The translations under genes were made by a program, and so were the position numbers. Below, piece after piece: positions 21,853 to 23,788 of a stretch of 46,307 bases of DNA. Under the pieces are notes generated by a model. It was not told the origin of the DNA. It worked only from the letters and a program-made list of their open reading frames with translations, and did not search any database. The stretch is from Alphaproteobacteria bacterium (GTDB taxonomy: Bacteria; Pseudomonadota; Alphaproteobacteria; RF32; CAG-239), in assembly GCA_045590955.1 (NCBI GenBank), contig JAZNSB010000012.1, positions 1 through 46,307 of the forward strand, written 5' to 3'. Within the stretch, counting starts at the first letter, position 1; every line of letters starts with the position of its first letter.

Positions 21853-23665
21853 AATACTGTTTTTATCATTTGTTGCAGCAAGCGTTCTTTTGTGCCTTAG
21901 ATTGGTAACTTTTATAAAAAAATGTTCTCGTGATGATGCTGTATATAGGCATTTTGCAGAAGAAAAAGATGTAGAAAAAATCGGACTTTTTTCCGGAACT
22001 AAATTTAGGATTGGTTATTTTTTCGGTAAGAAAATCAGGCTTACAGATTCATATCCTTTATTGTTGTTGGGTAAAATAGGTACAAAAAAAACTTCTGCGG
22101 TGGTGGTTCCTAATATACTTGAAAGTAAAAAAAGCCACATGTTTATTGTGGATGAAAAGGGTTCTGTGGCAAGATATACAGCAAGATACAGGAACTCTTT
22201 GGGAAAGACTACAATTTTTGATTGGGACCTTTTGGACAATAAAGATATGTTTGCAAAGTGGAATCCTATGGATGAGCAAAACTTGCCCCAGGATGAAGTT
22301 TTTAGGCAAAAATATATCCAATGTATGGTCAAGGGTTTGTTTTATAATACCAACATCAACCAAGACAAAGAAGATATTTATTGGCAAACAATGGCTGAGA
22401 ATGTTTTAACGGGAATTATGTTTTTTAACATCCAAAGGGTAAAGCAAGCTTGCGCAAATGACTATTTTTTGGAAAAACTTATAAAAGATTTACCTTTGTC
22501 AGAAAATGATAAGCAGATTTTGAACAGTTATTATCAAAATATGCCGGAAAGGTATGTGGCAAAGATTAAAAAACAAATTAAAACACACTCAATAACAATT
22601 AAGAATTATGTTCCTATCGGAAGTTGGGCGGGAATTAAAGAGGCCTGGCGAGGAAGAGAGCTTTCACTTCCAATGATTGCTGATACTTTATACCAAGATT
22701 ATTATGATGCAGAAGCAGATAATGAAGCAAAAATAGTGCAAAATATATTGTATAGATATATGGAAGAGGCAAATTTATTTGCTTATGATTTTGATTACAG
22801 AAAGTATTTTGCAGAAGTTTTTAATATGAGTGAACTGCAATCAAAGGTTTTGTTCGGAAAAATTTTGCAAGCGTTGGCGGTGTTTAAGCAACAGTCGATC
22901 AGAGAAAGATTGTCAGATAATGATTATTGTATGGCAGATATGAGTAAAAAATCTGATGAAAAAATTACGGTGTACAACATAACCAAAAGTAAAAATGCAA
23001 AAATAATTGGGCGAATCTTTACGGATTTGCAGATGATGTATTGCATTTATGCTAGAGGCGAGCAAGATCAAAGTTCGGTATTTGTTTTGGATGACGTAGT
23101 TTTGTTGCCTAAATTAAATTTTCTGACAGAAGCTTTAATGCGGGGACAGTATTACGGAATGCGCTTTTTATTATCTGTCAGAGATTTGAGATTGTTATAT
23201 TATTTGTATGGAAAAGATGATGTGGAATCTATAGTGGCAAATACACCGCATAAGTTGTTGTTTGGAGAAAATGCTGAAGATATATTGTCAAATTTAAATG
23301 GTTTGACCAAATTTGGAACAAAGTCAATTCAAGTACAAAAAACAGAAATTTTATCATTGCTTAAAAATAAAAAAGCTTTGAATGATTCTGCTTATTATAA
23401 AAGAGTGGCATGGTATTTTGAAAAGATTATTAAAAAGAACGTTTGGAACGCAGAAAAGTTTTTGTTTATGCATTCTCAATACTATCATCTGCCAATTTTA
23501 TGTGATAAACGAAGCTTTATTAAAGACGAGTATTTATATGAAAAGAGTCTTGGTGAGTTTATGTGTCAGGTGGATTATGAAACAGTAAAAAATAGAAAAG
23601 AAAAATCTTTGACAGTTCCATGTTTTGAATATAAAACAGAAAAAACAAAACAAAAGCCAAAATAA
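21842..23665 (+). CDS. VirD4/TraG-like type IV coupling protein, motif-degenerate (GTG start; possible frameshifted extension to 23772)
   Basis: N-terminal TM; LLLLGKIGTKKTSAVVVPNIL (Walker A region), FIVDEKG, KWNPMD, YWQTMAENVLTG, VFVLDDVVLLPKL...ALMRGQYYGMRFLLSV...LYGKD..ESIVAN (TraG-D C-terminal pattern). Confidence 0.82.
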   Translation: MIIEILFLSFVAASVLLCLRLVTFIKKCSRDDAVYRHFAEEKDVEKIGLFSGTKFRIGYFFGKKIRLTDSYPLLLLGKIGTKKTSAVVVPNILESKKSHMFIVDEKGSVARYTARYRNSLGKTTIFDWDLLDNKDMFAKWNPMDEQNLPQDEVFRQKYIQCMVKGLFYNTNINQDKEDIYWQTMAENVLTGIMFFNIQRVKQACANDYFLEKLIKDLPLSENDKQILNSYYQNMPERYVAKIKKQIKTHSITIKNYVPIGSWAGIKEAWRGRELSLPMIADTLYQDYYDAEADNEAKIVQNILYRYMEEANLFAYDFDYRKYFAEVFNMSELQSKVLFGKILQALAVFKQQSIRERLSDNDYCMADMSKKSDEKITVYNITKSKNAKIIGRIFTDLQMMYCIYARGEQDQSSVFVLDDVVLLPKLNFLTEALMRGQYYGMRFLLSVRDLRLLYYLYGKDDVESIVANTPHKLLFGENAEDILSNLNGLTKFGTKSIQVQKTEILSLLKNKKALNDSAYYKRVAWYFEKIIKKNVWNAEKFLFMHSQYYHLPILCDKRSFIKDEYLYEKSLGEFMCQVDYETVKNRKEKSLTVPCFEYKTEKTKQKPK

Positions 23666-23788
23666 AAGAGCCGAAACAAAAAAATGCATCTGATGTAGAG
23701 GGAGATTGGTGGTTGGATGAACAAAATTTTGAAAAAACACAAACAATAAATAAAATAAATCCGTTTTCTTAGATGAAAGTGATAAATA

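What the first reader, a model, noticed from the sequence alone, without database searches (positions are those of the whole stretch)
23635..23772. Hidden C-terminal tail of the VirD4-like gene in the -1 frame
Seen: after the TAA at 23663-23665, the 123-nt gap to rarA is not regulatory-looking. The -1 frame is open from 23635 to TAG 23770-23772 and reads NRKNKTKAKIKEPKQKNASDVEGDWWLDEQNFEKTQTINKINPFS*. One extra A in the A6 run at 23640-23645 would fuse it, giving an acidic-aromatic DWWLDE motif and a 16-nt gap to rarA, like the tight spacing of the rest of the operon. Known: T4CP C-terminal tails set substrate specificity (e.g. F TraD-TraM). The A_AAA_AAC here is not in the register needed for classical -1 ribosomal frameshifting. 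Inference: a homopolymer assembly error, a recent frameshift, or transcriptional slippage giving two isoforms.
Basis: partly seen in the sequence, partly recalled or inferred. Interest (0 to 1): 0.62.

Follow-up and report, generated by a model that had tools for sequence, protein, structure and literature searches.

The report
Frameshift-severed conserved tail of coupling protein
The short open frame after this coupling-protein gene is the gene's own highly conserved C-terminal docking tail, cut off by a one-base frame break in an A-rich linker; this is an ordinary broken or mis-assembled gene, but it exposes a conserved tail motif in a little-known gut-bacterial protein family.

Summary
The T4CP-like ORF 21842-23665 stops at TAA, and the -1 frame is open from 23635 to 23772 with exactly the peptide quoted.

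The tail is not a chance ORF. Seventy-eight non-redundant orthologues from uncultured gut Alphaproteobacteria end in [DE]-W-W-[LM]-x-E-x-[AS]-F, then N-P-F 14-17 residues after the first W. W, W and F are invariant in a 69-sequence alignment. The hidden frame reads D-WWLDEQNF...NPF-S-stop with the same spacing. A tail HMM finds only this spot in the whole six-frame genome (E = 9e-5; next best E = 2).

No other orthologue carries the motif out of frame. There is no heptamer in register, no downstream RNA structure, and the A run is only 6 long.

A screen with 327 reference ORFs found no homopolymer frameshift elsewhere in the assembly. This copy also has a deviant Walker A (GKIGTKKT) and lacks the first transmembrane segment.

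Odds:
- Genuine recent frameshift with only leaky rescue: about 0.5.
- Assembly error: about 0.27.
- Selected recoding: about 0.1.

Interest is low to moderate.

The parts
20734..21852 (+). Pentapeptide-repeat partner gene (372 aa). It overlaps the T4CP start by 11 nt and carries a K/E-rich C-terminal extension not seen in relatives.
   Evidence: Pfam PF00805 at 2.9e-31. It is 48-57% identical to the gene directly upstream of the orthologues in more than 20 relatives. Its sequence is shown.
21842..23665 (+). T4CP-like (VirD4/TraG-type) ORF in the zero frame, 607 aa, ending at TAA 23663-65.
   Evidence: Pfam PF02534 scores 71.5 bits against a cut-off of 20.1, and PF10412 scores 40.2 bits. It is 30-34% identical to orthologues of about 780 aa.
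21845..21913 (+). The only hydrophobic (transmembrane-like) segment. It aligns with the second of the two N-terminal membrane helices of the orthologues. The first about 100 residues are absent.
   Evidence: N-terminal alignment. No remnant was found upstream in any frame.
22070..22093 (+). Deviant Walker A, GKIGTKKT. Lys replaces the Gly that precedes the catalytic Lys.
   Evidence: 22 of 23 orthologues read GxxGxGKT. G77, G80, K83 and T84 are invariant.
23090..23095 (+). Walker B Asp-Asp (VFVLDD), retained.
23635..23662 (+). A 28-nt A-rich linker where the zero and -1 frames are both open. A single frame break must lie here.
   Evidence: tblastn shows body homology in frame 0 up to about 23626 and tail homology in the other frame from 23704.
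23640..23645 (+). A6 run, the likeliest site of a one-base slip.
23659..23665 (+). A_AAA_TAA: a Lys codon preceded by A and followed by the stop. This is the best of four A_AAR sites for P-site -1 slippage.
   Evidence: Read directly from the sequence. The mechanism is inferred from PMC5009743 and PMC10861913.
23635..23772 (+). Hidden tail frame (45 codons plus TAG). It has no ATG, GTG or TTG start before the motif.
   Evidence: HMM hit at E = 9.3e-5.
23704..23730 (+). D-W-W-L-D-E-Q-N-F, the conserved acidic-aromatic core of the tail.
   Evidence: W, W and F are invariant and E is at least 90% conserved in 69 orthologues.
23758..23766 (+). N-P-F, the terminal motif. It starts 17 residues after the first W and is followed by one residue and then the stop.
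   Evidence: In 71 of 78 orthologues the offset is 14-17 residues, and 1-7 residues usually follow NPF.
23729..23756 (+). Promoter-like TTGAAA-16-TAAAAT inside the tail frame, 33 nt upstream of rarA. The count of such sites is not above chance.
   Evidence: 4 sites found against 2.4 +/- 1.5 in shuffles.
23789..25093 (+). rarA (mgsA), the conserved downstream neighbour.
   Evidence: Pfam MgsA_C at 1.3e-60. It is 75-80% identical to the gene downstream of the orthologues.

Best explanation
The 45-codon frame at 23635-23772 is the authentic ancestral C-terminus of a chromosomally fixed type IV coupling-protein paralogue. This paralogue occurs in uncultured gut Alphaproteobacteria and always sits between a pentapeptide-repeat gene and rarA. 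In orthologues the tail is a disordered linker ending in a short linear motif, [DE]WW[LM]xEx[AS]F...NPF. I infer that this motif is a docking peptide for a partner in trans, as with the C-terminal tails of TraD and DotL. In this genome the sequence is one base out of register somewhere within a 28-nt A-rich, Lys-codon-rich linker. The most likely cause is a genuine, evolutionarily recent one-base loss by replication slippage. The main product would then be a tail-less 607-aa protein. Only a small fraction of ribosomes (order 1%, inferred) would regain the tail by unprogrammed -1 slippage at the four A_AAR Lys codons, the last of which abuts the stop. The break fits a copy already under loosened constraint: it lies in the smallest genome of the family, has a deviant Walker A and has lost its first membrane helix. 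Shown here: the tail's identity, the position of the break, its uniqueness among orthologues, and the absence of frameshift signals. Inferred: that the break is real rather than an assembly error, that expression is leaky, and that the tail has a docking role.
For: Tail identity: orthologue C-termini; genome-wide HMM hit; motif statistics in 78 orthologues; W764, W765 and F771 invariant in 69 sequences. Orthology is supported by conserved synteny of pentapeptide gene, T4CP and rarA. The break lies between 23626 and 23704, and the shared open window is 23635-23662. The assembly looks clean. With 327 reference ORFs from 381 kb of a relative, the only split hits were a MacB-like gene pair with its own ATG and antisense artefacts. 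The genome holds about 6,100 A/T runs of 6 or more. Loosened constraint shows in Walker A GKIGTKKT against GxxGxGKT in 22 of 23 orthologues. It also shows in the missing N-terminal 100 aa with no remnant, and in a genome of 1.2 Mb against 1.3-1.9 Mb for relatives. The AF2 model of an orthologue (pLDDT 83) leaves residues 746-785 below pLDDT 50, apart from a short helix at the WW. That is the behaviour of a linear motif. Unprogrammed -1 suppression of single-base deletions reaches 1-10% in aggregate in E. coli (PMC10861913).
Against: No reads could be inspected, so a consensus error is not excluded. The tail keeps every invariant residue, the right spacing and the right stop. That is what an error or an expressed tail would also give, and a real break must therefore be young. 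A 607-codon body that stays open in a 35% GC genome shows the gene was under selection until very recently. The deviant Walker A and short N-terminus may be lineage-specific adaptation rather than decay.
Confidence: 0.5

Rival explanations
1. Assembly or consensus error. The organism's gene is intact at about 643 aa, and the contig is simply one base short in the A-rich linker. The cause would be a homopolymer miscall or a minority strain variant chosen by the assembler.
For: The tail is perfectly preserved, including the stop one residue after NPF. The break lies in low-complexity A-rich sequence, 56% A over 23580-23700. Relatives are low-coverage metagenome bins, with record titles showing coverage of 3-10x. 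None of 84 orthologues is broken here.
Against: No homopolymer frameshift appeared in 327 reference-ORF comparisons, which cover roughly 1,700 runs of 6 or more bases. An assembly of 67 contigs at 99% completeness looks like short-read data, where indel errors at A6 are rare (established knowledge). The same copy shows other departures from the family that no sequencing error explains.
Confidence: 0.27
2. Selected recoding. The break is real and is maintained because -1 ribosomal slippage, or RNA-polymerase slippage, on the A-rich linker sets a fixed ratio of tail-bearing to tail-less subunits. This would be analogous to dnaX tau/gamma or Shigella mxiE.
For: Four A_AAR Lys codons lie in the 28-nt overlap, one directly before the stop in the form A_AAA_TAA. 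The tail has no start codon of its own, yet it is intact. Shifty-stop and A_AAG P-site slippage are documented (PMC5009743).
Against: No X_XXY_YYZ heptamer lies in register. No downstream structure exists: 23630-23790 folds at z = 0.13 against shuffles. No Shine-Dalgarno-like stimulator is visible upstream. A6 is below the threshold of about 9 nt at which slippage matters, both in PMC1088944 and in this genome's own run-length distribution. The break is not conserved: 0 of 84 orthologues have the motif out of frame. No sister species is available to test conservation.
Confidence: 0.1
3. Chance open frame in a regulatory spacer. The 123 nt after the TAA would be ordinary intergenic DNA carrying the rarA promoter, and the peptide resemblance would be coincidence.
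For: A promoter-like TTGAAA-16-TAAAAT lies at 23729-23756. Open -1 frames past stops are common in this genome.
Against: The HMM hit is unique in the genome and lies exactly where the orthologues' tail should be. All invariant residues and the W-to-NPF spacing match. The number of promoter-like sites is not above shuffles.
Confidence: 0.01

Closest known systems
F-plasmid TraD C-terminal tail binding TraM (Lu et al. 2008, as cited in PMC7434980)
   Same: Both are T4CPs with a flexible acidic C-terminal tail ending in aromatic residues. In TraD the tail docks a partner and sets substrate recognition. The RF32-type tail is likewise acidic-aromatic and is predicted to be disordered.
   Different: There is no sequence similarity to the TraD tail. 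No TraM, relaxase or transfer operon lies at this locus. The partner is unknown, and binding has not been tested.
Legionella DotL C-terminal extension binding IcmS/IcmW/LvgA (PMC7251119, PMC3441705)
   Same: The C-terminal extension of a T4CP acts as an adaptor platform. DotL (6SZ9) is among the structural neighbours of the orthologue model.
   Different: The DotL extension is long and wraps around its adaptors. Here the conserved part is a motif of about 25 residues. No IcmSW-like genes were looked for or seen.
Cagbeta (8DOL) and TrwB (1E9R/1GKI) coupling ATPases
   Same: These are the best structural matches to the orthologue model (Foldseek E = 3.5e-14 and about 1e-6). Cagbeta is the only PDB sequence hit. 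The domain layout is the same: nucleotide-binding domain plus all-alpha domain.
   Different: Identity is 10-13%. The window's copy has a non-canonical Walker A and a single membrane segment.
dnaX tau/gamma (E. coli A_AAA_AAG frameshift; Thermus A9 slippage) and Shigella mxiE (T9 slippage)
   Same: In these genes two C-terminal isoforms, or a fused product, come from an A/T-rich slip site late in the gene (PMC1088944, PMC5009743).
   Different: Those sites have a heptamer in register with stimulators, or runs of nine, and they are conserved. None of these features is met here.
Unprogrammed -1 suppression of single-base deletions in E. coli (PMC10861913)
   Same: The geometry is the same: a one-base deficit is rescued by -1 slips at many codons within the window where both frames are open. 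Aggregate rescue was 1-10% in the test cases.
   Different: That was measured in E. coli on other genes. The window here is only 28 nt, so I expect the low end of that range. Nothing was measured for this sequence.

Membership tests
Type IV coupling protein (VirD4/TraG/TrwB; Pfam PF02534, PF10412) | Sequence match over the curated cut-off | tested here: met
   PF02534 scores 71.5 bits against a cut-off of 20.1. PF10412 scores 40.2 bits against 20.5. All NCBIfam VirD4/TraG equivalog models score far below their cut-offs.
Type IV coupling protein (VirD4/TraG/TrwB; Pfam PF02534, PF10412) | T4CP fold (nucleotide-binding domain plus all-alpha domain) | tested here: met
   The test used an orthologue, not the window's own protein. 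The AF2 model has pLDDT 83. Top PDB matches are Cagbeta 8DOL, TrwB and DotL.
Type IV coupling protein (VirD4/TraG/TrwB; Pfam PF02534, PF10412) | Canonical Walker A, GxxGxGK[ST] | tested here: not met
   The window's copy reads GKIGTKKT. Twenty-two of 23 orthologues are canonical.
Type IV coupling protein (VirD4/TraG/TrwB; Pfam PF02534, PF10412) | Walker B acidic pair | tested here: met
   VFVLDD, with D417 and D418 conserved.
Type IV coupling protein (VirD4/TraG/TrwB; Pfam PF02534, PF10412) | N-terminal membrane domain with two helices | tested here: not met
   Only one hydrophobic segment is present. The first about 100 residues of the orthologues have no counterpart in any frame.
Type IV coupling protein (VirD4/TraG/TrwB; Pfam PF02534, PF10412) | Encoded with a T4SS or relaxase | tested here: not met
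   The neighbours are a SPOR protein, a pentapeptide-repeat protein, rarA, rluC and asmA. A VirB4 homologue exists elsewhere, at C28:24219-26651.
Chromosomal T4CP paralogue of gut RF32-like Alphaproteobacteria (pentapeptide gene, T4CP, rarA) | Conserved synteny with the pentapeptide-repeat gene upstream and rarA downstream | tested here: met
   more than 20 loci carry both neighbours. The family occurs in 108 of 282 family genomes and 14 of 23 genera.
Chromosomal T4CP paralogue of gut RF32-like Alphaproteobacteria (pentapeptide gene, T4CP, rarA) | C-terminal [DE]WW[LM]xEx[AS]F...NPF tail in frame with the body | tested here: not met
   The motif is present but one base out of frame.
Programmed -1 ribosomal frameshift site | X_XXY_YYZ heptamer in the zero-frame register | tested here: not met
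   The zero-frame codons are GAA AAA ACA AAA CAA AAG CCA AAA TAA. Only single A_AAR sites occur.
Programmed -1 ribosomal frameshift site | Downstream stimulatory hairpin or pseudoknot | tested here: not met
   The minimum free energy is -12.9 kcal/mol against a shuffle mean of -13.25, giving z = 0.13.
Programmed -1 ribosomal frameshift site | Frame break conserved in orthologues | tested here: not met
   None of 84 complete orthologues carries the motif in another frame. No same-genus genome was available.
Transcriptional slippage site | A/T run long enough to slip (about 9 in most bacteria) | tested here: not met
   The run is A6. The genome's own run distribution breaks at 9-10, matching the threshold in PMC1088944.
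Transcriptional slippage site | Non-templated A insertions seen in RNA | not testable with these tools

The most novel reading that the evidence does not exclude
The break is real and is kept by selection. Low-level -1 slippage on the Lys-codon run (four A_AAR sites, the last against the stop) would make a fixed minority of tail-bearing subunits. These would mix with tail-less subunits in the hexamer, tuning how many partner molecules a domesticated coupling protein can dock. That would be a dnaX-like stoichiometry device arising in the most reduced genome of the family.
Probability: 0.08. Interest if true: 0.6.

Novelty: new member of a known kind. Interest (0 to 1): 0.3.

Why it matters
For annotation, the gene should be called as a frameshifted or broken T4CP paralogue whose true C-terminus lies at 23704-23769. 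It should not be called as a complete 607-aa protein followed by a 123-nt spacer.

For biology, the useful by-product is the tail itself. A [DE]WW[LM]xEx[AS]F...NPF motif is among the most conserved features of a coupling-protein family that has become a fixed chromosomal gene in gut Alphaproteobacteria, away from any secretion operon. The motif holds 3 of the 39 invariant columns in the 69-sequence alignment. That points to a specific, still unknown docking partner and supplies a short peptide to fish for it.

If the break is real, this genome is a natural tail-less variant.

Tried and rejected
- **Raw reads:** A6 versus A7 is untested.
- **Independent assemblies of the same species:** none were found.
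  - The protein's 90% cluster has one member on one contig.
  - The search for related loci on metagenome contigs returned nothing.
  - A degenerate DNA pattern for DWWLDEQNFEK matched nothing.
  - An exact look-up of RarA found no record.
  - No second genome of the genus exists among 282 family genomes.
- **N-terminal remnants upstream of 21842:** tblastn and an N-terminal HMM gave nothing. The extra C-terminal 60-75 residues of the pentapeptide ORF are K/E-rich low complexity, not a membrane helix.
- **Genome-wide frameshift screen:**
  - Two 'hidden tail' candidates in the sensitive pass were antisense artefact ORFs of the reference.
- **ORF-openness statistic:** it was uninformative, because downstream genes inflate it.
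- **Stimulatory RNA structure:** none found.
- **Terminator after the TAA:** none found.
- **Tail docking in cis:** the AF2 model of an orthologue leaves the tail unplaced at low confidence, so this gives no support for cis docking.
- **Read-through sequence:** a read-through of the window's protein was made only inside a script for alignment. It was not submitted to any search or fold.

Full report
**Observation**

- The ORF 21842-23665 (+, GTG start, 607 aa) ends ...FEYKTEKTKQKPK at TAA 23663-65.
- The frame one base behind is closed by TAA at 23632-34. It then stays open from 23635 to TAG 23770-72 and reads NRKNKTKAKIKEPKQKNASDVEGDWWLDEQNFEKTQTINKINPFS.
- The A6 run lies at 23640-45, and rarA starts at 23789.
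- The two frames are open together only in 23635-23662 (28 nt).
- The tail frame has no ATG, GTG or TTG before the motif. It can therefore only be reached from the upstream ORF.

**Is the tail real?**

Openness alone is weak evidence. Homology is not.
- The nearest homologues (30-34% identity, 773-819 aa) all end in an acidic-aromatic motif followed by NPF.
- An HMM built from 15 orthologue tails was searched against all 34,183 six-frame segments of the 1.2-Mb genome. It hit only C12:23635-23769 (E = 9.3e-5; next best E = 2).
- In 78 non-redundant orthologues the core is [DE]-W-W-[LM]-x-E-x-[AS]-F.
- NPF is present in 71 of the 78. It starts 14-17 residues after the first W and is usually followed by 1-7 more residues.
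- The window reads D-W-W-L-D-E-Q-N-F, with NPF at offset 17 and one residue before the stop.
- In a 69-sequence alignment only 39 columns are invariant, and three of them (W, W, F) lie in this tail.
- tblastn puts body homology in frame 0 up to about 23626 and tail homology in the other frame from 23704.
- The hidden frame is therefore the gene's true ancestral C-terminus, and the break lies in the linker.

**What the gene is**

- Pfam places the protein in the T4CP families (PF02534 at 71.5 bits, PF10412 at 40.2 bits). It falls far below every NCBIfam VirD4/TraG equivalog cut-off.
- An AF2 model of an orthologue (pLDDT 83) matches Cagbeta 8DOL, TrwB and DotL best. Cagbeta is also the only PDB hit by sequence.
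- The gene is not in a secretion operon. Its neighbours are a SPOR protein, a pentapeptide-repeat protein, rarA, rluC and asmA.
- The order pentapeptide gene, T4CP, rarA is conserved in more than 20 relatives.
- Record titles show the relatives to be uncultured gut Alphaproteobacteria from humans, chickens and ruminants, for example CAG:495 and Candidatus Scatocola.
- The paralogue occurs in 108 of 282 family genomes.
- A second T4CP paralogue is present in this genome at C37:13888-16107. A VirB4 homologue lies on C28.
- Earlier notes from this scan describe the same family as a 'domesticated' coupling protein with a pentapeptide partner. My synteny result agrees with them. I did not test their wider claims.

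**State of this copy**

Compared with its orthologues, the window's protein differs in three ways.
- It lacks the first about 100 residues. One of the two membrane helices is gone, with no remnant in any frame.
- Its Walker A is GKIGTKKT, where 22 of 23 orthologues have GxxGxGKT.
- Its linker before the tail is about 26 residues instead of about 66.

Walker B and many invariant residues are kept, and the 607-codon body is open in a 35% GC genome. The genome is the smallest in the family and the only member of its genus.

**Cause of the break**

The decisive test is read support for the contig across 23635-23662. No independent assembly exists in the collections searched. The indirect evidence is as follows.
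- *Assembly quality.* I used 327 reference ORFs from 381 kb of a relative's genome. No homopolymer frameshift appeared in the window's genome.
  - The split hits in this screen were non-colinear matches, gene pairs that each have their own ATG (including a MacB-like pair), or antisense artefacts.
  - The genome contains 3,995 A6/T6 runs, 1,630 A7, 450 A8, 42 A9 and one A10.
  - Both errors and fixed frameshifts are therefore rare here.
- *Uniqueness.* None of 84 orthologues has the motif out of frame.
- *Signals for programmed shifting.*
  - No heptamer lies in register.
  - No downstream structure exists (z = 0.13).
  - The A run is well below the length of about 9 nt at which slippage is selected against, both in the literature (PMC1088944) and in this genome's own run-length distribution.
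- *Leaky rescue is plausible.* Every Lys codon in the overlap is preceded by A. This gives four A_AAR sites, the last being A_AAA_TAA at 23659-65. P-site -1 slippage at such sites and next to stops is documented (PMC5009743). Unprogrammed -1 suppression of single-base deletions reaches 1-10% in aggregate in E. coli (PMC10861913).

**Verdict on mechanism**

I commit to a genuine, recent one-base loss in the A-rich linker. The main product would be a tail-less protein, with roughly 1% of product carrying the tail through unprogrammed slippage (confidence 0.5).
- A short-read-like, demonstrably clean assembly makes a consensus error at A6 unlikely. This copy also shows independent signs of loosened constraint.
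- Against this, the tail is flawless, which an assembly error (0.27) or selected recoding (0.1) would also explain.
- A chance ORF is excluded (0.01).

**What the tail probably does**

The orthologue model leaves residues 746-785 at pLDDT below 50, with only a short helix at the WW. That is a disordered linker carrying a short linear motif. I infer that it docks a partner in trans, by analogy with the TraD tail binding TraM and the DotL extension binding IcmSW (PMC7434980, PMC7251119, PMC3441705). The partner is unknown and nothing here tests binding.

**Novelty and interest**

A gene broken at an A-rich stretch is ordinary. The tail motif of this family is, to my knowledge, undescribed, but it is a detail of a family that earlier notes of this scan had already flagged. 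I rate this a new member of a known kind, with interest 0.3.

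Noticed in passing
window 22070-22093: Walker A of the T4CP-like protein reads GKIGTKKT. The Gly before the catalytic Lys is replaced by Lys, while 22 of 23 orthologues keep GxxGxGKT. ATP binding may be impaired in this copy.
   Followed up: partly
window 21620-21852: The pentapeptide-repeat ORF is about 60-75 residues longer than in relatives, with a K/E-rich low-complexity C-terminus. 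It overlaps the T4CP GTG start by 11 nt. The T4CP has meanwhile lost its first about 100 residues, which suggests a local deletion or rearrangement at the gene junction.
   Followed up: partly
G000 C37:13888-16107 (-): A second T4CP paralogue (739 aa) with a canonical GTGKT Walker A and an acidic tail. It lies next to several unannotated membrane and low-complexity proteins, near ftsQ, ftsA and ftsZ. This paralogue is the more widespread one in the family.
   Followed up: no
G000 C28:21212-27499: A VirB4 homologue (810 aa; PF03135 at 56.6 bits) is preceded by three small proteins with hydrophobic segments (119, 111 and 604 aa) and a 96-aa VirB3-sized ORF. The cluster sits at a contig end. The genome therefore has at least part of a VirB-type T4SS, unlinked to either T4CP.
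   Followed up: partly
L098 / L014 (G017) and L016 (G004): Two other small-genome relatives also carry departures from the family. G017 has a compact 627-aa form without the N-terminal 100 residues and with Walker B IADG, but an intact in-frame tail. G004 has Walker A NLKT and lacks NPF. Erosion of this protein may recur in reduced genomes.
   Followed up: partly
L094 (G144:C32): This orthologue has an in-frame TGA and ends at 688 aa. No WW motif was detectable downstream in any forward frame. It may be a second, independent loss of the tail.
   Followed up: partly
G000 C43:5699-7611 (-): The MacB-like ABC transporter is encoded as separate ATPase and permease genes with an ATGA stop/start overlap. 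The relative G133 has a single fused 684-aa gene.
   Followed up: partly
whole genome G000: A/T homopolymers are about 3-fold enriched over expectation at lengths 5-8, sit at expectation at 9, and are depleted at 10 or more (one A10, none longer). This is the signature of selection against slippery runs at about 9 nt.
   Followed up: yes
window 23729-23756: A promoter-like TTGAAA-16-TAAAAT (10 of 12 matches) lies inside the tail frame, 33 nt upstream of rarA. The number of such sites in the region is not above shuffles.
   Followed up: partly
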